NCBI GenBank assembly: GCA_030693145.1
Contig: JAUYBI010000049.1
Span: 7,305-71,304, forward strand
Direction: 5' to 3'
Length of the DNA stretch: 64,000 bases
DNA from: Candidatus Omnitrophota bacterium
GTDB lineage: Bacteria > Omnitrophota > Gorgyraeia > Gygaellales > Profunditerraquicolaceae
Shown here: in pieces, positions 8,297-43,495 of the stretch
Numbering within the stretch: the stretch's first letter is position 1
Layout of the letters: the number at the start of each line of letters is the position of its first letter
The notes under the pieces: model-generated
The model's database searches: none
Seen by the model: only the letters and a program-made list of their open reading frames with translations
Told to the model about the DNA's origin: nothing
Program-made: the position numbers and the translations under genes

Positions 8297-9053
8297 GTCC
8301 AAGATTGCCAATAATTTCTCCCGCTACGCGCATCTTTACGATAAATATGCCGCTGTGCAGAACCAGGCCGCTTTTAAACTGGCAACTTCTTTAAAAAACG
8401 ATAATTTTTCCAAGATCTTGGAGTTGGGTTGCGGAACAGGCAATTATACGCTTATGCTCCGGGAGAGGTTTACCCACGCAAGAATCAAGGCCGTGGATAT
8501 TTCAGAGGAGATGATTTCCTTAGCGCAAAACAAATTAAAGCATAAAAATATTGAGTTTATGGTTGCGGACGCAGAAAAGATAATTCCGGATAAGGATTTT
8601 GACCTGATTACCTCCAACGCCTGTTTCCAGTGGTTAAATGATCTGGCTAAAGCCCTGCGAGGATACGCGAAATCACTGCGCCGAGGAGGATTTATTAATT
8701 TTTCAATATTCGGCCCGGATACTTTTTGTGAATTGAATACGGCATTAAAAAGCGTCCTGGAAGAAAGCCGCCTGGATTCAGTTTATTTTTGTAACCGCGC
8801 CAGCCTCAAGGAAATGCTTAAAGATAATTTTAAATCTGTAAAGGTAAATGAGGTTTGCTATAAAGAAAGCTTTGGGAGCCTGAAAGAATTATTGGAGAAA
8901 ATAAAATATTCCGGGATTAGGGGAAACGGTTTAAGCAAAGAAGTTTATTTTAGCCGCGGGTTGTTAGAGAGGTTGGAAAAGGCGTACCGGGATAGATTCC
9001 AGGAAATTGGCGTTACTTATCAGGTATTTTTTTGCCGGGGAGAAAAACGATGA
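8289..9053 (+). CDS. bioC: malonyl-[ACP] O-methyltransferase
   Basis: SAM-MTase motif I LELGCGTGNYT; ~254 aa; ATG 8289 overlaps bioH stop. Confidence 0.8.
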   Translation: MDKSKIANNFSRYAHLYDKYAAVQNQAAFKLATSLKNDNFSKILELGCGTGNYTLMLRERFTHARIKAVDISEEMISLAQNKLKHKNIEFMVADAEKIIPDKDFDLITSNACFQWLNDLAKALRGYAKSLRRGGFINFSIFGPDTFCELNTALKSVLEESRLDSVYFCNRASLKEMLKDNFKSVKVNEVCYKESFGSLKELLEKIKYSGIRGNGLSKEVYFSRGLLERLEKAYRDRFQEIGVTYQVFFCRGEKR

Positions 9054-9125
9054 CCCATTCGACGCGGCCGCCGACGGCGGCCTTGCTCAGGGTCATGGTG
9101 AACAAGTGAAACGAGTTGAACCATG
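9051..9125 (+). repeat. dispersed intergenic repeat (copy A, bioC-bioD junction)
   Basis: TGACCCATTCGAC...TTGCTCAGGGTCAT..TGA.C...GAGTTGAACCATGA; 5' TGA is the bioC stop, 3' ATG is the bioD start. Confidence 0.8.
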
Positions 9126-9800
9126 AAGGGGATATTTATTACCGGCACGGATACCGGGGTAGGTAAATCCATAGTTACCGGGCTTTTGGCGAAATATTTA
9201 CGGGAAAAAGGCTATAAGGTAGTAACTCAGAAATGGGTGCAGACCGGCAGCCGTTTTAGCGCGGATATTAATCTGCATCTTAAAATCATGGGTGTATCTA
9301 AAGGCGCAATTAAAGATCATCTTGATTGCGTTTGTCCTTACATATTTAAACTGCCTGCCTCTCCGCATTTAGCCGCCAAAGTTGAGAATAAAAAAATCGA
9401 TATCGCCAGGATCAAGCAAAGCTTTAAATCATTATCCGCAAAATTTGATTTTGTGATTGTCGAGGGGATTGGTGGTTCGCTGGTCCCGTTAAATGAAAAA
9501 CGTTTGGTGATTGATATCGCCAGGGAGCTTGGCCTGCCGGTGTTAATAGTAGCGCAAAATAAATTAGGCGCGATAAATCATATCCTGATGACTATTGAAG
9601 TTTTAAAATATAGAAAGATGAAAATTTTGGGCATAGTGTTCAATAATTGCCCAGGCCAGAATAAATTAATCCTTCGGGATAATCCGGAGATTATCCGGAA
9701 AATGACCAAACAAAACATACTGGGTGTTTTACCCCGGAATAATAGGCTGGGTTTATTATACAAAAAATTTTTACCGATAGCCGCAAGGATAATCTTATGA
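9123..9800 (+). CDS. bioD: dethiobiotin synthetase
   Basis: P-loop GTDTGVGKS at N-terminus, 225 aa. Confidence 0.85.
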   Translation: MKGIFITGTDTGVGKSIVTGLLAKYLREKGYKVVTQKWVQTGSRFSADINLHLKIMGVSKGAIKDHLDCVCPYIFKLPASPHLAAKVENKKIDIARIKQSFKSLSAKFDFVIVEGIGGSLVPLNEKRLVIDIARELGLPVLIVAQNKLGAINHILMTIEVLKYRKMKILGIVFNNCPGQNKLILRDNPEIIRKMTKQNILGVLPRNNRLGLLYKKFLPIAARIIL

Positions 9801-11137
9801 AAGATTGGCTGGGCACAGACTTAAAATATGTTTGGCATCCTTATACTCAAGCCAAGGAAGCGTTGCGCCTGAGGCCGGTTTTAATTGAAAGAGCCAAGGG
9901 AATCAAACTCTATGACGTAAAAGGCAATTTCTATTACGATACTATTTCCAGCTGGTGGTGTAATGTCCACGGGCATAATCATCCGCGGATAAAAGCCGCG
10001 ATTAAGCAACAGGTCAATCTTCTGGAGCATGTGTTGTTTGCCGGTTTTACCCACAAACCGGCGATTGAACTGTCCAGCAAGCTGATTGCCCTGACGAAAA
10101 ATAAGTTTAACCGGGTGTTTTTTTCGGATAACGGCTCAACCAGCGTTGAGGTGGCCTTAAAGATGTCATTTCAATATTGGCAGAATATTGGCCGGAAAAG
10201 GAAGACAAAGTTTGTTTCCCTTGATCATGGTTATCACGGAGATACAATCGGCACGATGAGCGTAAGCGGTTTAGATCTTTTTAACGCGGTATTTTCTCCT
10301 TTATTGTTCGCCGCATATAAAGTACCGTCTCCTTATTGTTACCGTTGCCCGATGAAAAAAAGGAGGTTTACTTGTGTGATTGATTGTATAAAACCGTTGG
10401 AAAGATTACTGCAGGAGAAACACGCAGAGATCTGCGCTTTGATCATTGAGCCTTTGGTGCTGGGGGCTGCCGGGATGATTATTTATCCCAAAGAATATTT
10501 AGAAAAAGCTGCTTGTTTGGCGAAAAAATACAAAATCCATCTTATCTTGGATGAGGTGGCTGTTGGTTTTGGCCGTACAGGAAAGATGTTTGCCTATGAG
10601 CATACGCCCGGCATCAAGGCAGATTTTCTCTGTCTTTCCAAAGGCATAACTTCCGGGTATCTTCCACTGGCGGTAACTTTGACTACGGAGGAGGTATTTC
10701 GGGCGTTTTACGGGGATTATGAAAAAAGGAAGACATTTTTCCATGGGCATACTTATACCGCTAATCCGGTTTCCTGCTCTGCCGGCTTGGCGAGCTTGAG
10801 CATCTTTAAAGAAGAAAAAACATTGCCGAAAGCAAGAAAGTTAATGCCTTTTTTTCATCGGGAACTGGAAAAATTCAGGGATTTAGATTTAGTAGGAGAT
10901 GTGCGCTATATCGGATTTATCGGAGCAATAGAATTGGTTAAGGATAAAAAGACAAAAGAGGGTTTTGGGCTTAAAAGAAGGCTGGGTTTAGAAGTTTACA
11001 AGAGAGGGCTTAAAGAACATCTTGTGCTCAGGCCGTTGGGTGATATAATTTATCTGTTTTTGCCGCTTTGTGCGTCTCAGGCGGAAATTAAGGATATTTT
11101 AAAAAGGACTTATTCCGTAATTAAATCTTTATCTTAA
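9797..11137 (+). CDS. bioA: adenosylmethionine--8-amino-7-oxononanoate aminotransferase
   Basis: 446 aa class-III aminotransferase; LDEVAVGFGRTGKMFA PLP-lysine region; start overlaps bioD stop. Confidence 0.85.
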   Translation: MKDWLGTDLKYVWHPYTQAKEALRLRPVLIERAKGIKLYDVKGNFYYDTISSWWCNVHGHNHPRIKAAIKQQVNLLEHVLFAGFTHKPAIELSSKLIALTKNKFNRVFFSDNGSTSVEVALKMSFQYWQNIGRKRKTKFVSLDHGYHGDTIGTMSVSGLDLFNAVFSPLLFAAYKVPSPYCYRCPMKKRRFTCVIDCIKPLERLLQEKHAEICALIIEPLVLGAAGMIIYPKEYLEKAACLAKKYKIHLILDEVAVGFGRTGKMFAYEHTPGIKADFLCLSKGITSGYLPLAVTLTTEEVFRAFYGDYEKRKTFFHGHTYTANPVSCSAGLASLSIFKEEKTLPKARKLMPFFHRELEKFRDLDLVGDVRYIGFIGAIELVKDKKTKEGFGLKRRLGLEVYKRGLKEHLVLRPLGDIIYLFLPLCASQAEIKDILKRTYSVIKSLS

Positions 11138-11157
11138 AAGGCGCGTGGTAATATTTA

Positions 11158-11185
11158 TTGACAAGCAGCCAGATTATTATATAAT
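11158..11185 (+). promoter_or_regulatory. sigma70-type promoter upstream of cspA (TTGACA-16-TATAAT)
   Basis: TTGACA at 11158-11163, TATAAT at 11180-11185. Confidence 0.5.
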
Positions 11186-11220
11186 TTCTTCGTAGTAAGC
11201 AAGGGGGTAGAAGTCTCCAA

Positions 11221-11258
11221 CCGTAAGGAGAAAGAATAACACGCCTTACGGTTTTTTT
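11221..11258 (+). promoter_or_regulatory. hairpin + U-tract in cspA 5' leader (attenuator/thermosensor candidate)
   Basis: CCGTAAGG..CCTTACGG stem followed by TTTTTTT, located between the predicted promoter and the cspA RBS. Confidence 0.4.
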
Positions 11259-11281
11259 GTGGAAAGGAGGAAGCAGAGAAA

Positions 11282-11482
11282 ATGGCAAAGGGTAAAGTAA
11301 AGTGGTTTTCCAATCAAAAGGGTTATGGTTTTATTACTCCTGAGAATGGCGCGGATGTGTTTGTGCATCATACCGCGATTCAGGGTGATGGCTATAAAAC
11401 TCTCGAGGAGGGCCAGGAGGTGGAGTTTGAGATTGAAAAAGGCCCCAAAGGTGAACAAGCTACTAAAGTAGTGAAGTTATAA
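11282..11482 (+). CDS. cspA: cold-shock protein (CspA family)
   Basis: 66 aa, [17 protein letters not shown]-1 and VFVHH RNP-2 motifs. Confidence 0.95.
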
Positions 11483-11501
11483 CCTAATCAGGAATAAATA
11501 A

Positions 11502-11583
11502 AGGGGACGGTTCTATTTTTTATTGCGGTAGGGGAGGTTTAAACCTCCCCTACAGTTGAAAGAAAAATAGAAGCGTCCCTTTT
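11502..11583. repeat. palindromic hairpin element (copy 3) with nested GGTTTAAACC hairpin
   Basis: GGGACGGTTCTATTTTTT ... AAAAATAGAAGCGTCCC arms enclosing GTAGGGGAGGTTTAAACCTCCCCTAC (11527-11553). Confidence 0.75.
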
Positions 11584-11596
11584 ATTTTCTGCTATA

Positions 11597-12673
11597 ATGA
11601 AAATTATGAAAAAATTTGTAGCGGTAGCCATGAGTGGCGGGGTTGATTCTTCAGTAGCCGCAGCTTTATTAAAAGAGCAGGGTTATGAGGTAATCGGCCT
11701 GACTATGTGTTTCAATCTGGCAGAGAAGAATGGCCGCAAACCCAGTTGTTGCGGTTTAACCGGAATTGAGGATGCGCGCCGGGTTTGTCAAAAGCTGGGG
11801 ATTAGGCATTATGTTTTAAACTTGAATAAAGATTTTTCCCGGGAGGTAATTCAAAATTTTTATCAGGAGTATCTTTGCGGCCGGACCCCCAATCCTTGTG
11901 TTCGATGTAATCAATTTATAAAATTCGGCATTTTACTTAAAAAGGCGATTAATTTAGGAGTGCAATTTCTGGCTACCGGCCATTATGCCCGGATTGTAAA
12001 ATCTCCACAGGGATATCTGCTGAAGAAAGCCAAGGACCTTAAAAAAGATCAATCTTATTTTCTCTATCGTTTAACCCAGGCGCAGCTTAAACATGTAATT
12101 TTTCCTTTAGGCAATTTTACTAAACCTAAAGTAAGGCAGTTGGCTTCTGATTTCGGGCTGAAAGTGGCAGAAAAACAAGACAGCCAGGAGATTTGTTTTT
12201 TACCTGACGGCAAATACGGTGATTTTATTAAAGCCAAAGGGCAAGGCGGTGTTCAGCCGGGAAAGCTTATCGATAGAAATGGAAATATTTTGGGTGCACA
12301 TCAGGGAATAGCATTTTATACCATTGGCCAGCGTCACGGACTGGGGATTACTACGGGATATCCTCTCTATGTAACGCAGATTAATGCCCGGGATAATCGG
12401 GTGAGCGTAGGCAGGCGCCAGGAGGTTTATAAAAGTGAATTTATTATAAAAGAGAGGCATTTTTTGGGTAAACCTCCTAAAAAGAAGATTGAGATTAAGG
12501 TGCGGATACGCTATAATCATAAAGAAATGCCGGCCGTTATTTATCCGGCTAAAGATAAGCTCAAGGTAATTTTTAAGCATCCGCAGTTTGCCATCACTCC
12601 CGGACAATCTGCAGTTTTTTACGATAAAGATACAGTTTTAGGCGGAGGAATAATTCAAAAGGTTATTGCTTAA
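11597..12673 (+). CDS. mnmA: tRNA-specific 2-thiouridylase
   Basis: PP-loop SGGVDSSVAA, conserved Cys (CVRCN), ~358 aa. Confidence 0.85.
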   Translation: MKIMKKFVAVAMSGGVDSSVAAALLKEQGYEVIGLTMCFNLAEKNGRKPSCCGLTGIEDARRVCQKLGIRHYVLNLNKDFSREVIQNFYQEYLCGRTPNPCVRCNQFIKFGILLKKAINLGVQFLATGHYARIVKSPQGYLLKKAKDLKKDQSYFLYRLTQAQLKHVIFPLGNFTKPKVRQLASDFGLKVAEKQDSQEICFLPDGKYGDFIKAKGQGGVQPGKLIDRNGNILGAHQGIAFYTIGQRHGLGITTGYPLYVTQINARDNRVSVGRRQEVYKSEFIIKERHFLGKPPKKKIEIKVRIRYNHKEMPAVIYPAKDKLKVIFKHPQFAITPGQSAVFYDKDTVLGGGIIQKVIA

Positions 12674-12674
12674 A

Positions 12675-13592
12675 ATGATCAAGGAAGACAAAAGGTTAGT
12701 CAATAAGATCAAAGAATTAAAGAAAAAACGCAACGCCATCATTCTGGCGCATAATTATCAATTACCGGAGGTTCAGGATATCGCGGATTTCCGCGGGGAT
12801 TCCCTGGAGCTTTCCCGGATTGCCGCCAAAACCGAAGCCGAAGTAATTGTTTTCTGCGGAGTTTATTTTATGGCCGAGACCGCTTCTATCCTTTCTCCGG
12901 ATAAATTAGTAATTATGCCGGATGTGTCCGCGGGCTGCCCCATGGCGAATATGATGAATGCTGATGATTTAAGGAAGCTTAAAAGAGAGCATCCCGGCGC
13001 AGTCGCGGTAGGCTATGTCAATACTTCTGCGGCGGTTAAAGCCGAGTTAGATTATTGCTGCACCTCGACGAATGCGGTGGCGGTAGTTAATGCGCTTAAA
13101 AATGAAAAAGAAATAATTTTTGTTCCGGATAAATATTTGGCCGACTATGTTTCCAAAAAGAGCGGCAGGAAACTAATTTCTTGGCATGGATTTTGCCCGA
13201 CGCATGTTAAAATATTGCCTGAGGATTTAAAGCGGGAAAAAAAGTTTCATCCTCAGGCCAAGGTGATGGTGCACCCGGAATGTTTGGCCTCGGTAGTGGC
13301 TTTAGCCGATGCCGTGCTTTCTACCAGTCAGATGGCCAAATATGCCAGCCAAGATCCGGCGAAAGAATTTATTGTGGGCACGGAGTCCGGGTTGATCTAC
13401 CGGCTTAAGCAGGATAATCCAACTAAAGAATTTTATTTAGCCAGCGAACGCGCGGTCTGCCCGAACATGAAACGCACTACGCAGGAAAAAGTACTTTGGG
13501 CTCTAGAGGAGCTTAAGGATGAAGTCAGGGTTCCTGAAGAGATTAGAAAAAAAGCGCGCCTGGCTATTGAGCGCATGCTAAAAATTATTTAA
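12675..13592 (+). CDS. nadA: quinolinate synthase
   Basis: ~305 aa, ILAHNYQ motif and conserved Cys residues typical of NadA; ATG 12675 (ORF track TTG 12666). Confidence 0.8.
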   Translation: MIKEDKRLVNKIKELKKKRNAIILAHNYQLPEVQDIADFRGDSLELSRIAAKTEAEVIVFCGVYFMAETASILSPDKLVIMPDVSAGCPMANMMNADDLRKLKREHPGAVAVGYVNTSAAVKAELDYCCTSTNAVAVVNALKNEKEIIFVPDKYLADYVSKKSGRKLISWHGFCPTHVKILPEDLKREKKFHPQAKVMVHPECLASVVALADAVLSTSQMAKYASQDPAKEFIVGTESGLIYRLKQDNPTKEFYLASERAVCPNMKRTTQEKVLWALEELKDEVRVPEEIRKKARLAIERMLKII

Positions 13593-15604: not shown

Positions 15605-16057
15605 ATGTTGGCAGAAAAGATTTTTAATGATTATAAAGAGGCGATGAAGGCCAGGGATACCCTGAAAAGTTCCGTTTTAAGTTTCTTGCGGGCGGACATG
15701 CTTAATCAGGCAACCACCATGAAAAAAGATAAGTTGCTGGATGCGGAAGTTATTGTCGTTATAAAAAAACAAATCAAGCAGCGGCAGGATTCTATCCAAC
15801 AGTTTACCAGCGGCGGGAGGCTGGAAGCGGCAGAAAAAGAGAAGAAAGAATCAGAGATCCTTAAGGGTTATCTGCCTGCGGAGTTATCCGCCGAGCAAAT
15901 TAAGAGCCTGATGGAAGAAGCGATCATTTCCACCGGGGCCAAGGACATAAAGGATATGGGCCGCTTGATGAAAGAGCTGACGGCTAAGCTTGCCGGGCAG
16001 GCTGATGGCAAGTTAGTAAGTGATCTGGTAAAGCAAAGGTTAAGCAGTCCTTCCTAA
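15605..16057 (+). CDS. GatB/YqeY domain-containing protein
   Basis: ~150 aa; start after GGAGGAG RBS. Confidence 0.65.
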   Translation: MLAEKIFNDYKEAMKARDTLKSSVLSFLRADMLNQATTMKKDKLLDAEVIVVIKKQIKQRQDSIQQFTSGGRLEAAEKEKKESEILKGYLPAELSAEQIKSLMEEAIISTGAKDIKDMGRLMKELTAKLAGQADGKLVSDLVKQRLSSPS

Positions 16058-16060
16058 AAT

Positions 16061-16088
16061 AGTAGTGCAGGTTTAAACCTGCACTACT
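16061..16088. repeat. GGTTTAAACC-core hairpin (copy 2)
   Basis: AGTAGTGCAGGTTTAAACCTGCACTACT, perfect palindrome immediately after yqeY stop. Confidence 0.75.
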
Positions 16089-16107
16089 ACTACAAGAAAG
16101 CTTAAGC

Positions 16108-21239: not shown

Positions 21240-21361
21240 ATTTCCCCCTCGCGGGAGCTCGGGGTCATTTTTCCCCAAGCGCCGGAGGCTGGGGAAAAAG
21301 TTCTCCCCCTCGCGGGAGCTCGGGGTCATTTTTCCCCAAGCGCCGGAGGCTGGGGAAAAAT
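21240..21361. repeat. 2 x 61-bp GC-rich tandem repeat, each unit containing a 10-bp-stem hairpin
   Basis: CCCCCTCGCGGGAGCTCGGGGTCATTTTTCCCCAAGCGCCGGAGGCTGGGGAAAAA repeated head-to-tail. Confidence 0.85.
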
Positions 21362-36823: not shown

Positions 36824-36852
36824 TTGACAGATGTAATTACATATGGTAACAT
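36824..36852 (+). promoter_or_regulatory. promoter TTGACA-17-TAACAT overlapping palindromic operator TGTAATTACA
   Basis: TTGACA 36824-36829, TAACAT 36847-36852, perfect 10-bp palindrome 36832-36841 in the spacer; upstream of XRE gene. Confidence 0.55.
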
Positions 36853-36878
36853 GGGACTAAGCTAAGATAAGGGGAAAG

Positions 36879-37073: not shown

Positions 37074-37099
37074 ATTTTTTTGTCCTTTGAGATTACAAG

Positions 37100-37109
37100 T
37101 GTAATTACA
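37100..37109. promoter_or_regulatory. second copy of TGTAATTACA palindromic operator
   Basis: Identical 10-bp palindrome between XRE gene and xis-like gene. Confidence 0.5.
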
Positions 37110-37135
37110 TACGATATAAGGAAAGGAGTGGCGAC

Positions 37136-37315
37136 ATGGATAGATTATTAACGCCGGAGGAAGTTTGTCAGAGGTATAGCATTAAAAAGAATACGTTTTA
37201 TCAGTGGACTTCAAAAAATTTAATACCATACCTCAAAAGAGGCGGCTTACGTTTTAAGGCGGATGAGCTTGAGAAATGGGAGAGCGGAGAGGTAAACAAT
37301 GTTAAATTAATATGA
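37136..37315 (+). CDS. excisionase-family DNA-binding protein (Xis/AlpA-like)
   Basis: 59 aa (below ORF-track cutoff): MDRLLTPEEVCQRYSIKKNTFYQWTSKNLIPYLKRGGLRFKADELEKWESG; RBS AAGGAAAGGAG; stop overlaps integrase ATG (ATGA). Confidence 0.65.
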   Translation: MDRLLTPEEVCQRYSIKKNTFYQWTSKNLIPYLKRGGLRFKADELEKWESGEVNNVKLI

Positions 37316-38505
37316 CCTATCGTTTAAGGCAATTTAACCTTAAGAGCGTTGTTAAGCGGGGTAAATTTTTTGAGATCCGCTATACTAACCCTCGTACCCA
37401 AAAAAGGGAATATTATAAGTTAGGCATAACACATGATGAAGTAAAAAGGAACCTGCCTGAATTTAATAGAATGTACGCCGGCCTTAAAAGGCAGGTTTTT
37501 TCTTATAGGATTACTGTCAGTCAAGGTGTGCAATCGTGGCTTGAGCAAAAAAGAACTGAATTAAGTAATAAGAAAACCGTGGTTCGGTATGAAGAAATTA
37601 TGAATAATTTCGCGGAATTTCTTAAAGATAAATTCCCGGCTTTAGGATATATGGATGAATTAGCGCAAAAACACTTTGAGGAGTTTAAAGAATACCGCAA
37701 AAATATTAAAGGGAAAAAGGAGAGGACGGTCAATTTTGAATTAGATATGTTAAGTAACTTATTCAAACGTTTGATGGAAAAAGATTATCTTAATTATAAT
37801 CCTTTATCGAAAGTTAAGAGATTGCAGGAACCATATAAAGAAGAGCGTTGGTTTACTGAAGAGGAGATTCGGAAAATTTTTGAAATAGCCAAAAGTGAGA
37901 AAACAAAGATAAATTGGTATGTTATATTCGCTACCTATTATTATACAGGTATGCGTAAAAGGGAATTGATGTCTCTCAGGAAGAAAGATATTGATTTTGA
38001 CAAAGGAATTATACTTATTCGGCACAAAGAGGGGTTTAAGCCGAAAACAGATAGGCCGAGGGCGATTCCTATTCATCCGGAGTTGGTGTCGATTTTGAGA
38101 TTGCTTCGGCCCTTCGGGCCTCGCAATGACACTGGGGACAGTGTTTGCAATGACGAGGGGAAAGTCGTGTCTTGTAATAACCAGGGAGACGGAGATTTTG
38201 TATTTGTTAATTCAAGGGGTAAGCCGTTTTCTAACGACGCGATAAGGCAGAAGTTAAAGAAGTTGTGCCGCAAGGCAGAGATAAAGCCCGGTAAGTTACA
38301 TAGCTTTAGGCATACTTGGACCGCTCATTCTATTATGAAAGGCTGTCCTTCAGATGTGGTTCAGGCGATCGGCGGCTGGAAAGAAAAAGATATGATTGAA
38401 AGATACAAGCACCTTGCGCCGGATTATATGGCTGATATTTATAAGAAAACAATTTTTTTAGGCAGCCAGGCTGAAGATAAAGGCTCTTTAAAGGCTCAAG
38501 ATTAA
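37312..38505 (+). CDS. tyrosine-type site-specific recombinase/integrase
   Basis: N-terminal SAM-like domain, C-terminal catalytic R...HSFRHTWTAH...GGW...RYKHL (R-H-R-Y) motifs. Confidence 0.85.
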   Translation: MTYRLRQFNLKSVVKRGKFFEIRYTNPRTQKREYYKLGITHDEVKRNLPEFNRMYAGLKRQVFSYRITVSQGVQSWLEQKRTELSNKKTVVRYEEIMNNFAEFLKDKFPALGYMDELAQKHFEEFKEYRKNIKGKKERTVNFELDMLSNLFKRLMEKDYLNYNPLSKVKRLQEPYKEERWFTEEEIRKIFEIAKSEKTKINWYVIFATYYYTGMRKRELMSLRKKDIDFDKGIILIRHKEGFKPKTDRPRAIPIHPELVSILRLLRPFGPRNDTGDSVCNDEGKVVSCNNQGDGDFVFVNSRGKPFSNDAIRQKLKKLCRKAEIKPGKLHSFRHTWTAHSIMKGCPSDVVQAIGGWKEKDMIERYKHLAPDYMADIYKKTIFLGSQAEDKGSLKAQD

Positions 38506-38586
38506 AGTTATGGGAGATGTAAATGTTTGATATAGTTAATATTTATGAGAAAAGAAATTCCTTATCCCTCTTTCGGCATTTTAAAT

Positions 38587-38627
38587 AAGAAATGGGGTCA
38601 GATCTAATAGATCTGACCCCATTTCTT
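38587..38627. terminator. bidirectional hairpin between integrase (+) and cspA2 (-)
   Basis: AAGAAATGGGGTCAGATCT-AAT-AGATCTGACCCCATTTCTT, 19-bp perfect inverted repeat with flanking A/T runs. Confidence 0.65.
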
Positions 38628-38646
38628 ATTGACCTTATTTAAAAGC

Positions 38647-38847
38647 TTATATTTTTTTTACGTTAGTTGCCTGGTCGCCTTTGGGGCCTTGAGTAACCTC
38701 AAATTCAACTTCATCGCCTTCTGCTAAAGATTTATATCCTTCTCCGGTGATAGCGCTGAAGTGAATGAAAACATCTTTGCCATCTTCAGAAGTAACAAAT
38801 CCGTAACCCTTTTGGTTGCTAAACCACTTTACTTTACCCTTTGCCAT
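38647..38847 (-). CDS. cold-shock protein (CspA family), second paralog
   Basis: 66 aa, [14 protein letters not shown] / VFIHF motifs. Confidence 0.95.
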
Positions 38848-39096
38848 TTTGTTTCACCTCCTCTTAAGATAAAAAAAAATCCGCAAAGCATGGTTATTTT
38901 TTGTTGCTGCTTTGCGGTTTATACGTGTTACTAATCAATTTCTTTGTTTCTCCTCTAGACTGATCTTATGTAATAAATATATCATGAATTGTCAATTTGT
39001 CAACCCTTTTTCCAATTCTAAGCGAGTAATTGACTATTATCCAGGAATTGGTATAATGTTGAAAAATTGCCGAGTAAGATATTATTGCCGATGTAG

Positions 39097-39169
39097 CTCA
39101 GTTGGTAGAGCAGGACTTTCGTAAAGTCAAGGTCGGTGGTTCGATTCCACTCATCGGCTTAAGTTTAGT
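39097..39169 (+). tRNA. tRNA-Thr (CGU)
   Basis: Acceptor GCCGATG/CATCGGC, D-arm GCTCAGTTGGTAGAGC, anticodon loop TTCGTAA (CGT), T-loop TTCGATT, discriminator T. Confidence 0.75.
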
Positions 39170-39180
39170 TTTCTCACCCT

Positions 39181-40446
39181 ATGGCCAGATTACGCGAAGT
39201 TTTAAAAAATCGCAACTTCTTTTTATTGTGGAGCGGCCAGATTGTCTCCCAGCTGGGGGATAGATTAGGCCAGATGGCCCTGATTGCTTTAGTCTATTTG
39301 CGCGCGCCGGGGTCAACACTGCAAATTGCCAAAATCCTTTCATTCACGATCATCCCGGTATTTATAATCGGCCCTTTAGCCGGGGTTTATGTGGACCGTT
39401 GGGACAGGCGGCGCACGATGTATGTCTGTGATTTCTTGCGCAGTTTACTGGTTTTTACCATTCCTTTATTTTTATTCTATGCTAAAAGTTTAGCCCTCAT
39501 TTATTTGATTATTTTTATTGCTTTTTCTATCGGCAGGTTTTATGTCCCGGCCAAGCTTTCGATTATACCGGACCTGGTGGATAAAAAAGACCTGTTGGTT
39601 GCCAATTCCCTGATTAACACCTCCGGAATGATCGCGGCAATCTTAGGTTTTGGGATAAGCGGCGTATTGGTAGAGAAGCTGGGGGCCAAAAGCGGTTTTT
39701 ATCTGGATTCTTTAAGTTTTTTAATTTCCGGGACATTTATTTTCCTGATCTCCAAGCGGTTTGTGTCCGCGATGGATTTTAAATCCGAATTCCGGCAGGT
39801 AAGTAAAGAGATTGTGGAGGTAATTAGAAAATCGGTATTTCAAGAGATCCGGGAAGGTATCGCTTATTTTATCCGTAAAAAAGATATCCGTTTTACCGCG
39901 GGGATCATTTTTGCGCTTTGGTCAGCTTTAGGAGCGGTTTATGTCGTCGCTATTGTTTTTGTGCAAAAGGCATTGCATTCGGCAACCAAGGACCTGGGGC
40001 TTTTGGTAATGTTTTTGGGAATTGGTTTATTTCTGGGTTCTTTGATTTATGGCAAGTTTGGCCAGCGTGTTTCGCATTATAAAATAATATTTGTCTGTTT
40101 GGTCGCCAGTGGTATAATGCTGGTCGTCTTTGCCTTGGGAATACATTATTATCCTAATTTTATTGTCGCGGCATTTTTGGCTTTGTGTTTAGGTTTGATT
40201 ATTGCCCCGATTATGATTGCTTCCAATACGATCATTCATAATGTCAGCGATAATGAGATGCTGGGCAAGATTTTTAGTTCCCTGGAAATTGTGATGCATC
40301 TGGGGTTTCTTTCGTTTATGTTTATCAGCAGCGTGCTGGCGGAGAAATTTTCGCATGTATTAATTTTGGTTAGCGTGGGTGGTTTATTAAGCGTGCTGGG
40401 TGTAGTCAGTTTGATTTTTAATCGAAAGGCGGCATGGTTAGATTAG
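39181..40446 (+). CDS. MFS transporter
   Basis: 421 aa, 12 predicted TM, GVYVDRWDRRRTM loop motif. Confidence 0.75.
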   Translation: MARLREVLKNRNFFLLWSGQIVSQLGDRLGQMALIALVYLRAPGSTLQIAKILSFTIIPVFIIGPLAGVYVDRWDRRRTMYVCDFLRSLLVFTIPLFLFYAKSLALIYLIIFIAFSIGRFYVPAKLSIIPDLVDKKDLLVANSLINTSGMIAAILGFGISGVLVEKLGAKSGFYLDSLSFLISGTFIFLISKRFVSAMDFKSEFRQVSKEIVEVIRKSVFQEIREGIAYFIRKKDIRFTAGIIFALWSALGAVYVVAIVFVQKALHSATKDLGLLVMFLGIGLFLGSLIYGKFGQRVSHYKIIFVCLVASGIMLVVFALGIHYYPNFIVAAFLALCLGLIIAPIMIASNTIIHNVSDNEMLGKIFSSLEIVMHLGFLSFMFISSVLAEKFSHVLILVSVGGLLSVLGVVSLIFNRKAAWLD

Positions 40447-41702
40447 CGGAAAATAAACATTATTCAGAAAACAAGGCGACGCAGAGTTTACCGCTTCCGC
40501 TGAAAGTTTATCTTCCTTTAATCCAGCATTTAGGAAAGATATGTAATCCGGAAGTAAAAGTTGGCGATACGGTTAGCCTCGGCCAGAAGATTGCCAGCAT
40601 CGCGGCCCATGTTTATGCGCCCATTCATGCCTCGATATCGGGTAAGGTCGTGGCTGTCCAGGATTGGCCGCACCCTGTTTTAGGCAGGGCTAAAGCCGTG
40701 GTCATTGAAGGTGATGGCCAGGATAATTCCGCAGCATTTTACTTGAAAAACCAGCAAGAGATAGATAAATTAACGGCGCAGGATTTGAGAAAAATTGTTT
40801 TAGATGCCGGGATAGTCGGGATGGGCGGGGCGAGTTTTCCCACGCACATCAAACTTAATCCCCCGCAGCCGGTAGACATTCTGATTATTAACGGCGCAGA
40901 GTGCGAGCCGTATTTAACCGCGGACGCCAGGTTAATGGTTGAGAAAACCGCGGAGATATCCTTAGGTATTGCGTTAGTTGCCAGGTGTTTAGGCGTGCAA
41001 AAAATTTATATTGGGATAGAGGAAAATAAACCTGAAGCGATCAAGGTTTTTTCCGGAATTTCCGGTTTCCGGGTCAAAGTTTTGCCGTCGGATTATCCGC
41101 AAGGCGGAGAAAAACAATTAATTCAGAATATATTAGGCAAAGAGATTCCCCGCGGTAAGCTGCCCTTTGATATCGGCGTTTTGGTGCAGAATGTAGCGAC
41201 AGTGTATGCAATTTATGAGGCGGTTTATAAAGGTAAGCCTTTGATTGAGCGGATCGTTACGGTTACAGGCAGTTGCCTGCAAAACCCGAAGAATTTACTC
41301 GTGCGCCTAGGCACACCCATCAAGAACTTGATAGAGTTTTGCGGGCCGCTTAAAGAACCGCCGGCAAAAATTATTATCGGCGGGCCGATGATGGGTATTG
41401 CCCAGTATACGGATGAGGTTCCGATCATAAAATCCAGCGGCGGCCTGTTATTGATGAATAAAAAAGAAGCTAAAATTACAGAAGAAGATCCTTGCATCCG
41501 CTGCGCCGCCTGCGTGCGCGGCTGTCCGGTGGGGCTAATGCCTTGCCAGATTAATTTAGCCTCGGAAAGATTGCTTTGGGATTTAACTAAGGAGTATGGA
41601 GCCAGTGATTGTATCGAGTGCGGTATATGTAATTATGTTTGTCCTTCTAACCGGAGATTGTTGCAGACGATTAAAAGGGCAAAGTTAGAGGTAGCCAAAT
41701 GA
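40434..41702 (+). CDS. rnfC: Rnf electron transport complex subunit C
   Basis: GMGGASFPTHIKL NADH/FMN-binding region, two 4Fe-4S ferredoxin motifs CIRCAACVRGCP and CIECGICNYVCP. Confidence 0.85.
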   Translation: MVRLAENKHYSENKATQSLPLPLKVYLPLIQHLGKICNPEVKVGDTVSLGQKIASIAAHVYAPIHASISGKVVAVQDWPHPVLGRAKAVVIEGDGQDNSAAFYLKNQQEIDKLTAQDLRKIVLDAGIVGMGGASFPTHIKLNPPQPVDILIINGAECEPYLTADARLMVEKTAEISLGIALVARCLGVQKIYIGIEENKPEAIKVFSGISGFRVKVLPSDYPQGGEKQLIQNILGKEIPRGKLPFDIGVLVQNVATVYAIYEAVYKGKPLIERIVTVTGSCLQNPKNLLVRLGTPIKNLIEFCGPLKEPPAKIIIGGPMMGIAQYTDEVPIIKSSGGLLLMNKKEAKITEEDPCIRCAACVRGCPVGLMPCQINLASERLLWDLTKEYGASDCIECGICNYVCPSNRRLLQTIKRAKLEVAK

Positions 41703-41757
41703 CCCATTCGACTTTTGCTCAGGGTCATCCTGAGCGACTGAAAGGAGTCGAAGGATG
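41700..41757 (+). repeat. dispersed intergenic repeat (copy B, rnfC-rnfG junction)
   Basis: TGACCCATTCGACTTTTGCTCAGGGTCATCCTGAGCGACTGAAAGGAGTCGAAGGATGA; supplies rnfC stop and rnfG RBS/start. Confidence 0.85.
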
Positions 41758-42390
41758 AAAGAGATGGCGCGTTACGGTTTCATTTTAGCATTTATTTGTG
41801 TAGTGGCCGCGGGGTTGCTGGCGATAGTGAATACGCTTACCGGCCCTAAAATTATTGCCGCCGCGCAATCCGAGGAACAGGCAGCGCTTAAAGAGGTTAT
41901 GCCTTTGGCTGCCAAATTTACCGCGGTTAAGCCTCCTGCGGCTGAGGAAATATTATATTATAAGGCATTTGACGCCCAAGGTAAGTTAATCGGTTTTGTT
42001 TTTAAAGCCAGCGGTAAAGGATATTCCAGCGTCATTGAAACCTTAGCCGGGATATTCCCGGATGGAAAAATCAGCGCGATAAAAATCATATCTTTGAATG
42101 AGACCCCGGGCTTAGGCATGCGGGTAGCGGAAGATAAATTTACCGCTCAGTTTAATCGTCAGAGTAGTTTGGATTTATTTGGAGTTCAGGCAATTACCGG
42201 GGCAACAATTTCCAGCCGCGCGGTAATGAATTCAGTGATGAAAAAAGCTCAAGAGATAAAAGCATTGATAAAAAATGACCCATTCGATGGTTCGACTAAG
42301 CTCACCATCGACACTGAGCAGGGTCGAAGTGTCGACTCCGCTCAGGGTCATGCTGAGCTAACCAAAGGAGAGTCGAAGCATGACAAATAA
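41755..42390 (+). CDS. rnfG: Rnf complex subunit G (FMN-binding), with repeat-derived C-terminal extension
   Basis: N-terminal TM, FMN-attachment motif GATISSRAV; last ~35 codons are encoded by a copy of the dispersed intergenic repeat. Confidence 0.8.
   Translation: MKEMARYGFILAFICVVAAGLLAIVNTLTGPKIIAAAQSEEQAALKEVMPLAAKFTAVKPPAAEEILYYKAFDAQGKLIGFVFKASGKGYSSVIETLAGIFPDGKISAIKIISLNETPGLGMRVAEDKFTAQFNRQSSLDLFGVQAITGATISSRAVMNSVMKKAQEIKALIKNDPFDGSTKLTIDTEQGRSVDSAQGHAELTKGESKHDK
42276..42383 (+). repeat. dispersed intergenic repeat (copy C, expanded, in-frame within rnfG 3' end)
   Basis: TGACCCATTCGATGG...GAGCAGGGTCGAAG...GCTCAGGGTCATGCTGAGC...GGAGAGTCGAAGCATGA; read through as codons of rnfG, 3' ATG is the rnfD start. 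Confidence 0.8.
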
Positions 42391-43330
42391 TCTTATTGTT
42401 TCCGGTTCGCCGCATATCCATAAACCAGCATCCATTTCCCGGATTATGTGGACGGTGGTAATCAGCCTTATCCCCGCGGGGATTGCGGGTGTAATTATTT
42501 TCGGACTGGATGCTTTATGGGTAACCTTGGTGGCGGTGGCTGCCGCGGTATTAACGGAATTGCTCTTTGGAATATGGACGAAAAAGAAGATTACGGTTCT
42601 GGATGGCTCGGCGGTAATTACCGGTATATTATTAGCTTTTAATCTTCCTTCGGGAGTGCCGTTATGGTTACCGATTGTGGGAGCGGTATTTTCTATTGCC
42701 ATTGGTAAACAGGTTTTTGGCGGTTTAGGGCAAAATATTTTTAATCCGGCGTTGGTGGGCAGGGTTTTTCTGATGGCCTCCTGGCCAAAATATATGACTA
42801 CCTTTACCCAGCCTCTGCGTGCAGCCGGGTATGATGCCATCACTAGCGCTACTCCTTTGGCCATGCTTAAAGAAGGCAAGGTTTTAGAGCACATTCGGTA
42901 TCTGGATTTATTTTTGGGTAAGCACGGCGGATGTATTGGTGAGGTTTGTATCCTGGCATTATTAATCGGGGCAGCGTTACTTTTAATTAAAGGTTATATT
43001 TCCTGGCACATTCCGGTAACCTATATTTTTACCACGGCAGTGTTTACCTATATTTTTGGAGGAAGGCAGCTTTTTGGCGGAGATTGGTTATTTCATATTT
43101 TAAGCGGCGGGTTAATTCTGGGGGCATTTTTTATGGCTACGGATTATGTGGCTACTCCTTTAACGGCCAAGGGCCAGCTAATTTTTGGCCTGGGTTGTGG
43201 CTTGCTTACTGCGGTGATCCGGATTTGGGGAGGCTATCCCGAAGGCGTATCCTATGCCATATTGATGATGAATGCCGCTACACCATTTATTGACAGGTAT
43301 ACTAAGTGTAGAATTTACGGAACAAAATGA
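42380..43330 (+). CDS. rnfD: Rnf complex subunit D
   Basis: 316 aa polytopic membrane protein, NqrB/RnfD family pattern incl. FMN-binding Thr region. Confidence 0.8.
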   Translation: MTNNLIVSGSPHIHKPASISRIMWTVVISLIPAGIAGVIIFGLDALWVTLVAVAAAVLTELLFGIWTKKKITVLDGSAVITGILLAFNLPSGVPLWLPIVGAVFSIAIGKQVFGGLGQNIFNPALVGRVFLMASWPKYMTTFTQPLRAAGYDAITSATPLAMLKEGKVLEHIRYLDLFLGKHGGCIGEVCILALLIGAALLLIKGYISWHIPVTYIFTTAVFTYIFGGRQLFGGDWLFHILSGGLILGAFFMATDYVATPLTAKGQLIFGLGCGLLTAVIRIWGGYPEGVSYAILMMNAATPFIDRYTKCRIYGTK

Positions 43331-43495
43331 CCCCTGGATATCTTTCCCTGGGTCATTTTGAACGAGCGGACATTGGAATAAACCTTGCTGATTTTTATTA
43401 ATTATCAATTACAGTAGGAGAGGTTTAAACCTCTCCTACTGTCGAAAATCAGAAAGTTTGTTACACTATCAACGAGCGAAGCGAGTCGAAGAATG
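43328..43495 (+). repeat. dispersed intergenic repeat (copy D, split/degenerate, rnfD-rnfE junction)
   Basis: 5' part TGACCCCTGG...CCCTGGGTCAT (43328-43357) and 3' part AACGAGCGAAGCGAGTCGAAGAATGA (43468-43495) separated by the GGTTTAAACC hairpin. Confidence 0.6.
43411..43442. repeat. GGTTTAAACC-core hairpin (copy 3)
   Basis: ACAGTAGGAGAGGTTTAAACCTCTCCTACTGT perfect palindrome between rnfD and rnfE. Confidence 0.75.

What the first reader, a model, noticed from the sequence alone, without database searches (positions are those of the whole stretch)
9051..43495. A dispersed 'stop-to-start' intergenic repeat, one copy absorbed into the rnfG reading frame
At least four junctions carry the same element: bioC|bioD, rnfC|rnfG, rnfG|rnfD and rnfD|rnfE. 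Its 5' end TGACCCATTCGAC provides the upstream stop codon. Its body holds nested inverted repeats (ATGACCC...GGGTCAT, GCTCAGG...CCTGAGC). Its 3' end GAGTCGAAG(N)ATGA provides an SD-like sequence, the start codon of the next gene and often an overlapping TGA. Copy C (42276-42383) is expanded and read in-frame, giving RnfG a ~35-residue C-terminal tail (...DPFDGSTKLTIDTEQGRSVDSAQGHAELTKGESKHDK). This resembles a MITE/REP-like element specialised for operon junctions and able to couple or uncouple translation via its hairpin.
Basis: seen in the sequence. Interest (0 to 1): 0.65.

Follow-up and report, generated by a model that had tools for sequence, protein, structure and literature searches.

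The report
Hairpin mobile element inserting at ATGA
Four gene junctions in this Omnitrophota genome carry a tiny hairpin-forming mobile DNA element that lands on the ATGA of a start codon and duplicates it, so the upstream stop and downstream start survive. The same apparently undescribed family, whose hairpin loop mirrors its own insertion junction, occurs in more than ten bacterial phyla.

Summary
The window holds four copies: A 9050-9126, B 41699-41758, C 42275-42383 and D 43327-43496.

Each copy is an insertion flanked by a direct repeat of ATGA. Relatives at 80-95% nucleotide identity have a single ATGA at the same rnf junctions.

Copy C sits 11 nt before the rnfG stop and is read in frame. 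Orthologous RnfG proteins end LIKNDK* (about 176 aa), or carry a 19-aa or 35-aa insert. The insert state shows no phylogenetic signal.

The extra 48 nt in copy C is a nested second element with its own core, TCGA.

The family is large.

The architecture is core-b-arm-b'-core'-d-arm'-d'-core. The apical loop (b' core' d) is the reverse complement of the junction (d' core b), and this holds as the core changes (ATGA, TGAA, TCAA, CGAA, TAA, GCCG, TCGA).

I found no transposase, no Rfam family and no matching paper. MIRUs are the closest analogue. Translational coupling is plausible for copy B but is not a general design feature.

The parts
9050..9126 (+). Copy A, at bioC|bioD. The insert plus one core is 73 nt. 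Layout: 5' ATGA 9050-9053 (its TGA is the bioC stop), CCCATTCGAC, a GC-rich extra hairpin at 9064-9082, GCTCA-GGGTCATGG loop at 9085-9098, 3' arm GTTGAA, CC, 3' ATGA 9123-9126 (its ATG is the bioD start).
   Evidence: The same insertion is present in the closest relative, L003.
41699..41758 (+). Copy B, at rnfC|rnfG, 56 nt. Sequence layout: ATGA-CCC-A-TTCGAC-tttt-GCTCA-GGG TCAT CC-TGAGC-gactgaaagga-GTCGAA-GG-ATGA. The loop GGGTCATCC lies at 41722-41730. A mini-ORF, MTHSTFAQGHPERLKGVEG*, is chained by ATGA overlaps to both genes. The internal Shine-Dalgarno is AAAGGAG.
   Evidence: The site is empty (single ATGA) in L002, L117 and L119, and L121 has GTGA there. The 3' half is identical in copies from other Omnitrophota genomes (L006, L009, L031, L051, L099, L111).
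42275..42383 (+). Copy C, inside the 3' end of rnfG and at the rnfD start, 105 nt and read in frame. The 5' ATGA is 42275-42278. The loop GGGTCATGC is 42345-42353. The 3' ATGA is 42380-42383 and is the rnfD start. It gives RnfG the tail DPFDGSTKLTIDTEQGRSVDSAQGHAELTKGESKH before the native DK*.
   Evidence: The empty site in relatives reads AAAAATGATAAATAA.
42288..42335 (+). Nested inner element within copy C, 48 nt, core TCGA. The cores lie at 42284-42287 and 42332-42335, with b = TGG and d' = GTG. The loop CCA-TCGA-CAC at 42305-42314 is the reverse complement of GTG-TCGA-TGG. This element is absent from the 57-nt version of the insert in L002 and in the 193-195-aa RnfG proteins.
   Evidence: Sequence; comparison with L002 and L121; alignment A1.
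43327..43496 (+). Copy D, at rnfD|rnfE, 166 nt, divergent. It begins ATGA-CCC-ctggatatctttcc-ctGGG-TCAT-TT and ends GAGTCGAA-GA-ATGA. The TT/GA pairing includes one T.G wobble. The 5' TGA is the rnfD stop and the 3' ATG is the rnfE start.
   Evidence: The site is empty in L002, L117 and L119. L065 has a canonical copy at the same junction.
43401..43447 (.). An unrelated perfect palindrome, ACAGTAGGAGAGGTTTAAACCTCTCCTACTGT (repeat family D1), nested inside copy D.
   Evidence: other copies at 11515 and 16049.

Best explanation
These are copies of a small (45-170 nt), non-autonomous, hairpin-forming mobile DNA element.

Shown:
- Each copy is an insertion flanked by a direct repeat of a 3-5 nt core, here ATGA. 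The core is present once at the uninserted site.
- ATGA is the commonest start-codon context and also the classic stop/start overlap. The 5' copy therefore keeps the upstream TGA stop, or the original ATG, and the 3' copy keeps the start codon of the downstream gene. Insertions at such sites survive selection.
- Copies are gained and lost precisely between close relatives. They nest in one another and form tandems that share one core.
- The layout is core | b - arm (TTCGAC..GCTCA) - b' core' d - arm' (TGAGC..GTCGAA) - d' | core. The segment b' core' d, the apical loop of the long hairpin, is the reverse complement of d' + core + b. That is the junction the two ends would form if joined, or the junction in a tandem.
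- This complementarity is kept in sub-families with different cores.

Inferred:
- The loop acts as an internal splint or guide. It pairs with the core at either end, and probably with the core in the target. It thereby defines where the element is cut out and where it goes in.
- A change in the loop would then retarget the element.
- The strand that folds is the sense (top) strand, as single-stranded DNA.
- The enzyme acts in trans and is unknown.
- Effects on the host are mostly neutral side-effects. Some sub-families carry a Shine-Dalgarno, some make a -4 coupled mini-ORF, and copy C is tolerated as a 35-aa RnfG tail.
For: Empty versus filled sites:
- Against L002 (91-95% nucleotide identity), the blastn alignments break exactly at the two ATGA copies of B and of D. 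The 4-5 nt containing the single ATGA are shared by the adjoining alignments: L002 3441-3444 and 4964-4968.
- The sequences of the empty sites are shown.

RnfG tail:
- The tail is 2, 21 or 37 residues after LIKN.
- Presence of the insert needs 21 parsimony changes for 25 insert-bearing tips out of 120. Shuffled tips give a mean of 22.5.
- Sister proteins about 97% similar differ in insert state.

Dispersal:
- More than 116 loci in species-representative genomes across more than 10 phyla, with several copies per genome. One Levyibacteriota MAG has 6.
- More than 120 variant loci in metagenomes.

Position relative to genes:
- The 3' ATG opens an ORF of at least 60 aa in 86 of 93 copies with a cleanly defined end.

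Loop-junction rule:
- With the 3' end defined only by the arm, the loop is fully complementary to the next 6-7 nt in 107 of 184 copies. Permutations give 12.8 (maximum 21).
- For loops other than TCAT the figure is 35 of 93, against 1.35 (maximum 6).
- 5'-flank complementarity averages 2.59 of 4 positions, against 1.35 when shuffled.
- Sub-family table: TTGATAC with TCAA, TTCATCC with ATGAA, TTCGTCC with CGAA, CGGCCC with GCCG.
- The nested element in copy C obeys the rule with core TCGA and b = TGG.
- NN/N'N' show double changes in 19 and 12 of 33 sequences, though that set was pre-selected for complementarity.

Other observations:
- Tandems share one core (L046, L211, L248) and nested copies occur (L001, L053, L076, L109).
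- The rnfG inserts are always multiples of 3 without stops (57 or 105 nt). They are therefore translated and not spliced out.
- There is no Rfam match even at E <= 10.
Against: - No mobilising enzyme or autonomous copy was found. No recurrent neighbouring gene family other than housekeeping genes appears. No ORF-carrying long copy exists among the held loci.
- Transposition itself has not been observed. Presence/absence could partly reflect homologous recombination between populations and hairpin-stimulated slippage deletion.
- All rnfG inserts belong to the rare 'GC' sub-type. That favours one old insertion with many precise losses over repeated insertion.
- The cross-phylum identity of the 5' half is partly imposed by the exact search patterns. 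Phylum labels come from MAG records and could include mis-binned contigs.
- The long hairpin and the loop-end pairings cannot all form at once. Which fold matters, and whether it forms in DNA or RNA, is not established.
- A large sister sub-family (loop CAGGCTC or CAAGCTC) has the 5'-segment-to-loop pairing but no 3' core repeat. That pairing is therefore not always target-derived.
Confidence: 0.72

Rival explanations
1. It is a derivative of a single-strand (HUH/Y1) transposon system, an IS200/IS605-type 'peel-and-paste' miniature (PATE) or a REPIN mobilised by a RAYT. On this reading the left ATGA is the target, the right ATGA is the element's own cleavage site, and the TCAT acts as the guide tetranucleotide.
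For: - Insertion is orientation-specific, next to a non-palindromic 4-5 nt sequence.
- Loss is precise.
- An internal sequence is complementary to the cleavage or target sites, which is the logic of IS608 guide sequences (established knowledge; background in PMC6006769 and PMC3479197).
- The sense strand is the lagging-strand template. GC skew is positive across the whole window and all copies are on the + strand.
- Non-ATGA sub-families also show a co-orientation bias with genes.
- G.T mismatches outnumber A.C mismatches 72 to 34 on the top strand.
Against: - The complement lies in the apical loop and serves both ends. In IS608 there are two separate guides, each 5' of the foot of a sub-terminal hairpin.
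- Both flanking tetranucleotides are identical, which is not required in IS200/IS605.
- The REP-type GTAG motif is absent.
- No Y1 transposase was found near about 240 copies.
- Orientation is confounded with gene direction.
Confidence: 0.25
2. It is a folded-hairpin recombination site, like an integron attC or the CTX phage attP(+), used by a tyrosine or other site-specific recombinase. The arms would be the two binding boxes and the core the overlap region, so the element would be an 'empty cassette'.
For: - The long hairpin has two conserved box pairs, TTCGAC/GTCGAA and GCTCA/TGAGC. They are separated by unpaired spacers of unequal length and capped by a variable loop, which resembles the attC layout.
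- If the ends were joined, the junction would read GTCGAA-[N'N' ATGA CCCA]-TTCGAC, an inverted-repeat site with a 10-nt spacer (read directly from the sequence).
- Tandems share a single core.
Against: - There is no GTTRRRY-type box.
- No integrase recurs next to copies.
- Targets have no arm sequences at all, only the 3-5 nt core.
- attC and attP sites have no loop complementary to their own junction.
Confidence: 0.12
3. It is primarily a functional RNA module selected by the host. On this reading it is a translational coupling or uncoupling device, or a thermosensor-like hairpin, placed between genes to tune subunit ratios. This is the functional half of the first reader's idea.
For: - In copy B the Shine-Dalgarno and start of rnfG lie in a -25.1 kcal/mol stem (z = -3.75). 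The 5' strand of that stem begins a few nucleotides after the rnfC stop.
- 37 of 106 copies make a mini-ORF whose stop overlaps the start.
- Many long copies carry AAAGGAG (42 of 58).
- MIRUs are thought to exploit -4 coupling (PMC12548453).
Against: - Close relatives do without it at the same junctions.
- Frames are near uniform, and there is no association between lacking a Shine-Dalgarno and being -4 coupled.
- Sub-families use non-codon cores such as TCAA, CGAA and GCCG.
- Nested, tandem and decayed copies occur.
- The same sequence sits in front of unrelated genes in many phyla.
Confidence: 0.08
4. It is an RNA-level mobile element, a very small self-splicing or self-circularising intron or a ribozyme. 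The loop would hold the two splice junctions together.
For: - The loop can splint the two ends. In the RNAalifold consensus TCAT is split between the 5' GA and the 3' AT.
- Copies are always in the sense orientation inside transcribed operons.
Against: - The rnfG inserts are constrained to 57 or 105 nt with no stop codons, which shows they are translated rather than removed.
- A continuous 9-bp duplex has no catalytic core.
- There is no Rfam hit.
- The element already restores the stop and the start at the DNA level.
Confidence: 0.04

Closest known systems
MIRUs (mycobacterial interspersed repetitive units; Supply et al. 1997, as summarised in PMC12548453)
   Same: Both are short intergenic repeats inside operons that appear to insert at start codons. 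In MIRUs an internal mini-ORF is coupled to the downstream gene with a -4 (ATGA) overlap, which minimises the cost to expression. Copy B is arranged exactly this way.
   Different: MIRUs belong to a different host clade, and I compared no sequences. MIRUs typically form tandem VNTR arrays and are not described as hairpins whose loop mirrors the junction. In this family only about 35-40% of copies are -4 coupled, and sister sub-families use cores that are not start codons.
RPE (Rickettsia palindromic elements) and other MITEs fused in frame to genes (reviewed in PMC2229807)
   Same: These are palindromic mobile repeats that can sit inside conserved protein genes and be translated as tolerated peptide insertions, like copy C in RnfG.
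   Different: RPEs are 105-146 bp and specific to Rickettsia. No defined start-codon target or loop-junction rule is reported for them. Here in-frame insertion is the exception: 1 of the 4 copies in the window.
IS200/IS605 family and its miniature derivatives (PATEs); REP/REPIN-RAYT systems
   Same: All have hairpin-dependent architecture, orientation-specific insertion next to a short non-palindromic sequence, precise excision, and an internal sequence complementary to the cleavage or target site.
   Different: In this family the guide-like sequence is in the apical loop and is shared by both ends. The two flanking cores are identical. The GTAG motif is absent, and no Y1 transposase was found nearby.
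Classical bacterial MITEs (Correia/NEMIS, ERIC/IRU, RUP; PMC2229807, PMC11602168)
   Same: All are small, non-autonomous, dispersed, able to form a stem-loop, co-transcribed with genes, and flanked by a target-site duplication.
   Different: Those elements duplicate a palindromic TA or similar target, have long terminal inverted repeats and are confined to a genus or family. This family has a non-palindromic core that varies between sub-families and is matched by the loop. Its inverted arms are only 5-7 bp and sub-terminal. It has near-identical modules in many phyla.
Integron attC sites / CTX phage attP(+) folded hairpins
   Same: Both are imperfect hairpins with two conserved box pairs and unpaired spacers. 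Integration shares a short core with the target.
   Different: This family has no GTTRRRY box, no associated integrase and no cassette ORF. attC sites have no loop complementary to their own junction.

Membership tests
MITE (generic definition) | Small (<~800 bp), no coding capacity for a transposase, multiple dispersed copies | tested here: met
   Copies are 45-170 nt. There are 4 in the window, more than 116 and more than 120 loci in the two collection scans, and several per genome.
MITE (generic definition) | Target-site duplication flanking the element, single at empty sites | tested here: met
   ATGA is duplicated at copies B, C and D and is single in L002, L117 and L119.
MITE (generic definition) | Terminal inverted repeats of at least 10-15 bp | tested here: not met
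   Only sub-terminal 5-7 bp arms are present (TTCGAC/GTCGAA, GCTCA/TGAGC). The extreme ends (CCC... and ...N'N') are not inverted repeats of each other; each pairs with the loop instead.
MITE (generic definition) | Cognate autonomous IS with the same ends | tested here: inconclusive
   None was found among about 240 loci or 1.76 Mb. Whole genomes could not be searched.
MIRU | Inserted at a start codon, with an internal ORF overlapping the flanking stop and start by 4 nt | tested here: inconclusive
   This is true of copy B and of 37 of 106 copies. It is not a family-wide property.
MIRU | Sequence relatedness to mycobacterial MIRU consensus; occurrence in Mycobacterium | not tested
All hosts found here are from other phyla.
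IS200/IS605-derived miniature (PATE) | Sub-terminal hairpins at each end, with a 4-nt guide 5' of the hairpin foot pairing with the cleavage site | tested here: not met
   Complementarity to the flanking core exists, but it lies in the apical loop and is shared by both ends.
IS200/IS605-derived miniature (PATE) | Y1 (HUH) TnpA partner in the genome | not testable with these tools
REP/REPIN-RAYT | REP palindrome preceded by conserved GTAG; RAYT gene flanked by REPs | tested here: not met
   No GTAG motif appears in any copy (sequences). No RAYT-like neighbour was found.
RPE (Rickettsia palindromic element) | Rickettsia-specific palindromic repeat inserted in frame in protein genes | tested here: not met
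   The behaviour is shared by copy C only. The hosts are Omnitrophota, CPR and others.
Any curated RNA family (riboswitch, ribozyme, leader; Rfam 15) | Covariance-model match | tested here: not met
   No match at the gathering threshold in the window. None at E <= 10 in 41650-42450.
Integron attC | R''/L''-L'/R' boxes with a GTTRRRY core, next to cassette ORFs and an IntI integrase | tested here: not met
   A two-box hairpin layout is present but there is no GTTRRRY. No integrase recurs near copies.

The most novel reading that the evidence does not exclude
This would be a previously unrecognised class of self-guided miniature mobile elements. A 6-10 nt apical hairpin loop specifies, by base pairing, both the element's own ends and the 3-5 nt integration core. 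A single loop change would then retarget the element, for example from ATGA to TGAA, TCAA, CGAA, TAA, GCCG or TCGA. A still-unknown trans-acting enzyme, shared or exchanged among very distant phyla including the Candidate Phyla Radiation, would mobilise it. It would be a natural, protein-free-encoded analogue of guide-programmed transposition.
Probability: 0.35. Interest if true: 0.88.

Novelty: new variant of a known kind. Interest (0 to 1): 0.74.

Why it matters
If the loop really programs the insertion site, this is a minimal, naturally reprogrammable DNA-insertion substrate. It would also give a handle for finding a new mobilising enzyme in barely studied phyla (Omnitrophota, Patescibacteria).

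Some consequences hold regardless of the mechanism:
- It explains a source of spurious N-terminal and C-terminal extensions and mini-ORFs in MAG annotations.
- It gives a sensitive strain-level marker, because filled and empty sites differ between genomes 91-95% identical.
- It shows how selfish DNA can colonise essential, tightly overlapping operons (rnf, ribosomal-protein operons) without breaking them.
- It supplies a natural experiment on tolerance of peptide insertions, in the form of the RnfG tail.

Tried and rejected
- **Conserved small peptide.** The mini-ORF frames differ between copies: A and C share one frame through GCTCAGGGTCAT, and B uses another (read). Rejected.
- **Known RNA family.** Rfam gave nothing at the gathering threshold or at E <= 10.
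- **Phage- or plasmid-borne element.**
  - The exact pattern gave 0 hits in IMG/VR.
  - A looser pattern gave 15 hits that are almost all chance matches inside coding sequence. Only L128 is a clear relative and L127 a partial one.
  - The PLSDB plasmid and INPHARED phage collections gave no blastn match.
- **Neighbouring transposase.** ORF clustering over the loci found only housekeeping families: ABC ATPase, response regulators, ribosomal proteins L6/S8/L18/S5/L15/L5/L2, SecY, PurN and TyrRS.
- **Long, ORF-carrying copies.** Distant matches to the expected 3' end are never preceded by the 3' arm, so they are chance matches.
- **Selection for -4 coupling.** No frame bias and no association with Shine-Dalgarno absence.
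- **rnfG as a cassette moved by flanking copies.** The C-G-D-E-A-B order is the same in relatives that lack the copies. Rejected.
- **Literature.** Searches for the motif strings, the translated motifs and descriptive terms found no description of this family.
- **Test of whether copies lie inside long ORFs.** The stop-to-stop test was too noisy to use.

Full report
**1. What is in the window**

The window comes from a Candidatus Omnitrophota genome. The RnfG homologues carry that name in their source records. The closest species representative is MAG JAHIKK01, at 91-95% nucleotide identity.

Pfam confirms the genes at the four junctions:
- a BioC-like methyltransferase (8265-9053) next to BioD (9123-9800);
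- RnfC (40434-41702), an FMN_bind protein that is RnfG (41755-42390), RnfD (42380-43330) and RnfE (43493-44086), followed by RnfA and RnfB.

TGACCCATTCGAC occurs 3 times, GAGTCGAAGNATGA 4 times (0 of 100 shuffles reach that), and GCTCAGGGTCAT 3 times against 0.18 expected.

A scan for ATGACC...GGTCAT finds exactly four sites, at 9050, 41699, 42275 and 43327. The fourth shows that copy D is a full but divergent element spanning 43327-43496. An unrelated palindrome is nested in it at 43401-43447.

**2. The copies are insertions with a duplicated ATGA**

Relatives fetched through their RnfG proteins and the genome-scan loci give empty sites.
- L117 and L119 read CAAATGAGAG or CAAATGAAAG at rnfC|rnfG, AAAAATGATAAATAA at rnfG|rnfD, and ACAAGATGAAAAAT or ACGAGATGATTAAT at rnfD|rnfE.
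- The nearest genome, L002, is empty at rnfC|rnfG and at rnfD|rnfE. At rnfG|rnfD it carries a shorter, 57-nt insert.
- In blastn against L002, the alignments stop at the 5' ATGA and resume at the 3' ATGA of copies B and D. The single ATGA in L002 is shared by both alignments, at L002 3441-3444 and 4964-4968.

Each copy is therefore ATGA[body]ATGA where the uninserted site has one ATGA. In the ancestral rnfG|rnfD junction the rnfD start ATG-A lies 11 nt before the rnfG stop (…AAT GAC/T AAA TAA). An insertion there falls inside rnfG.

**3. The RnfG tail is derived and labile**

Among the 120 best homologues, 80 end two residues (two of them one) after LIKN (174-177 aa). Sixteen have a 21-residue tail and seven a 37-residue tail; the window protein itself also has 37. 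Inserts are 57 or 105 nt, always in frame and free of stop codons. They are therefore translated and not removed from the RNA.

On a neighbour-joining tree of the core protein, insert-bearing and insert-free proteins are interleaved. Some sisters are about 97% similar. Presence/absence needs 21 changes for 25 insert-bearing tips, and shuffling the tips gives a mean of 22.5.

All rnfG inserts belong to the rare 'GC' sub-type (QGHAE). The most economical history is one old insertion with many precise losses, perhaps helped by recombination. Copies B and D are absent from L002, L117, L119 and L121. Copy B's 3' half is identical to copies in other Omnitrophota genomes. Both look recent.

**4. Copy C contains a nested second element**

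The 48 nt that distinguish the 105-nt insert from the 57-nt insert lie at 42288-42335 and are flanked by TCGA on both sides. They have the same arms as the main family, TTCGAC...GCTCA / TGAGC...GTCGAA. Their loop CCA-TCGA-CAC is the reverse complement of the module's own ends, GTG-TCGA-TGG.

**5. The family outside the window**

The hosts named in the records are:
- Omnitrophota;
- many Patescibacteria/CPR lineages (Levyi-, Gottesman-, Nealson-, Roizman-, Saccharibacteria and others);
- Planctomycetia and Pirellulales;
- Nitrospirae and Thermodesulfovibrionia;
- Elusimicrobiota, Margulisiibacteriota, Binatia and Actinomycetota;
- delta- and gammaproteobacterial MAGs.

Several genomes have multiple copies. 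Sub-types follow taxonomy. CPR copies are mostly 45-49 nt with AG or GG after TCAT. Omnitrophota and Planctomycetes copies are mostly 54-90 nt with CC or GG. This pattern argues against simple mis-binning.

Position relative to genes:
- Of 93 copies with a cleanly defined 3' end, 86 have the 3' ATG opening an ORF of at least 60 aa.
- In 55 of 106 copies the 5' TGA closes an upstream ORF of at least 60 codons.
- The remaining copies sit at start codons, often preceded by the native Shine-Dalgarno sequence.

Many copies lie in ribosomal-protein operons.

**6. The loop-junction rule**

All copies follow the plan core | b (CCC) A TTCGAC x GCTCA | b' (GGG) core' (TCAT) d (NN) | TGAGC y GTCGAA | d' (N'N') core. 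NN and N'N' co-vary as CC/GG, GG/CC, AG/CT, AC/GT, GC/GC and so on.

In these the loop and both flanks change together:

| Loop | 5' flank | 3' end |
|---|---|---|
| GGG-TTGA-TAC | nTCAA\|CCC | GTA-TCAA |
| TTCA-TCC | ATGAA | GGA-TGAA |
| TTCG-TCC | CGAA | GGA-CGAA |
| TTAT-CC | TAA | GG-ATAA |
| TAAT-CC | ATTA | GG-ATTA |
| CGGC-CC | GCCG | GG-GCCG |

There are also many singletons that fit the rule.

To avoid circularity I defined the 3' end by the arm alone. The loop is then fully complementary to the following 6-7 nt in 107 of 184 copies, against 12.8 in permutations (maximum 21). For non-TCAT loops the figure is 35 of 93 against 1.35 (maximum 6).

The loop is thus the reverse complement of d' + core + b. 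That is the junction the two ends would form in a circle, and the junction they do form in the observed tandems that share one core (L046, L211, L248).

RNAalifold on 33 minimal copies predicts two adjacent hairpins that split TCAT between the 5' GA and the 3' AT. This is a splint-like arrangement. That set was pre-selected for NN complementarity, so its 100% pairing is by construction. The long-hairpin arms are conserved in sequence and 94% paired, but they do not co-vary, which is uninformative. Copy D has a different 5' interior yet keeps ATGACCC/GGGTCAT. This suggests that the end-to-loop pairings, rather than the long hairpin, are the essential feature.

**7. Mechanism**

Shown:
- insertion with core duplication;
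- precise gain and loss between close relatives;
- nesting and tandem formation;
- loop-junction complementarity across different cores.

Inferred: the loop acts as a guide or splint for cutting and joining at the core. If both flanking cores are target-derived, a single change in core' would retarget the element. That would explain the many sub-families most simply.

The enzyme is unknown. No transposase or recombinase recurs near about 240 copies. No long copy exists among the held loci. The element is essentially absent from viral, phage and plasmid collections.

Three lines are compatible with a single-strand-DNA (IS200/IS605-like) process, but all are confounded by gene orientation:
- the sense-strand orientation on a window with uniformly positive GC skew;
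- the co-orientation bias of non-ATGA sub-families;
- the excess of G.T over A.C mismatches, 72 to 34.

Hairpin-stimulated slippage between the 4-nt repeats could account for precise loss without any enzyme.

**8. Translation**

In copy B the native Shine-Dalgarno serves the first ATG. A 19-codon mini-ORF is chained by ATGA overlaps to rnfC and to rnfG. The element's own AAAGGAG lies 8 nt before the rnfG ATG, inside a -25.1 kcal/mol stem. Coupling is plausible there.

Across the family, however:
- lengths modulo 3 are 41/34/31;
- only 37 of 106 copies are -4 coupled;
- coupling is not enriched among copies that lack a Shine-Dalgarno.

Preservation of expression therefore looks like a filter on which insertions survive, plus some sub-family adaptations. 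It does not look like the element's purpose.

**9. Comparison with known systems**

- MIRUs are the closest functional analogue, with insertion at start codons and -4 coupling (PMC12548453, citing Supply 1997).
- RPEs and other MITEs are the precedent for in-frame translated insertions (PMC2229807).
- IS200/IS605 and REP-RAYT systems are the precedent for hairpin- and guide-dependent single-strand transposition (PMC6006769, PMC3479197).

The family fails strict tests for each of these; see the membership table. I found no paper containing the motifs or describing such an element. This is absence within the searched library only.

**10. Verdict**

I rate the finding as a new variant of a known kind, the small non-autonomous mobile repeat. 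It has two unusual features: a loop that mirrors the insertion junction across changing cores, and a very wide phylogenetic spread. These justify an interest score of about 0.74.

Noticed in passing
window 50347-51051: An initiator tRNA (tRNA-fMet) gene is split in its anticodon loop by a group I intron. The Rfam hit is at 50784-50989 (69 bits). The intron contains a PD-(D/E)XK endonuclease ORF (PF11645) at 50384-50821. The 5' exon reads CGCGGGGTGGAGCAGCCTGGTAGCTCGCAAGGCTCA and the 3' exon reads ...TAACCTTGAGGTCGTCCGTTCAAATCGGGCCCCCGCAACCA. ARAGORN does not call this gene.
   Followed up: partly
window 21243-21360: A perfect tandem duplication of a 57-nt unit (start-to-start spacing 61 nt) lies between the patatin/cNMP-binding gene and the next ORF. 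It contains GGGGTCATTTTTCCCC...GGGGAAAAATGA, a 12-bp pairing of TCAT plus following bases with preceding bases plus ATGA. The interior is different, but the logic resembles the 3' hairpin of the element. No ATGA precedes the 5' end.
   Followed up: partly
window 11515-11561, 16049-16095, 43401-43447: A second repeat family (D1) consists of near-perfect 14-bp-stem palindromes around GGTTTAAACC, such as ACAGTAGGAGAGGTTTAAACCTCTCCTACTGT. One copy is nested inside copy D of the main element.
   Followed up: no
window 4063-4129, 5405-5467, 11497-11586: A third repeat consists of inverted pairs AATAATGGGACCGTTTCTATTTTT / GAAAAATAGAAACGGTCCCA about 40 nt apart (families D8/D9). They lie in intergenic gaps and look like terminators.
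   Followed up: no
window 40434-45484; L117, L119, L121: The rnf operon order is C-G-D-E-A-B rather than the usual C-D-G-E-A-B. The same order is found in relatives that lack the element, so the flanking copies did not cause it.
   Followed up: yes
window 37312-38505 and 39087-39159: A tyrosine recombinase (phage integrase family) gene lies about 580 nt upstream of tRNA-Thr(CGT). This may mark the edge of an integrated element.
   Followed up: no
L027, L037, L058, L059, L069, L076, L096 (ribosomal-protein spc-type operons): Copies of the ATGA element sit at junctions within ribosomal-protein operons, around S8/L6/L18/S5, in Planctomycetia, Patescibacteria and Omnitrophota. These are independent hits in essential, highly expressed operons of different phyla.
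   Followed up: partly
L180, L181, L198, L232 and about 15 other metagenome loci: A large sister family has the form GAGCCTGCCC-CATTCGAC-AAG-CTCAGGGCAGGCTC-TGAGC-GAA-GCCGAATGGG. It has the same arms and a 10-bp pairing between the 5' segment and the loop, but no 3' core repeat and no orientation bias relative to genes. From memory, its translations (…PFDKLRAG…, …LSLSKG…) are common in spurious hypothetical proteins.
   Followed up: partly
L121 5560-5616: In this relative the rnfD|rnfE junction holds an A-rich heptamer-like tandem, AACTGAAAAACCGAAAAACTGAAAAACCGAAAAATT..., in place of the ATGA overlap. This is a different kind of junction expansion.
   Followed up: no
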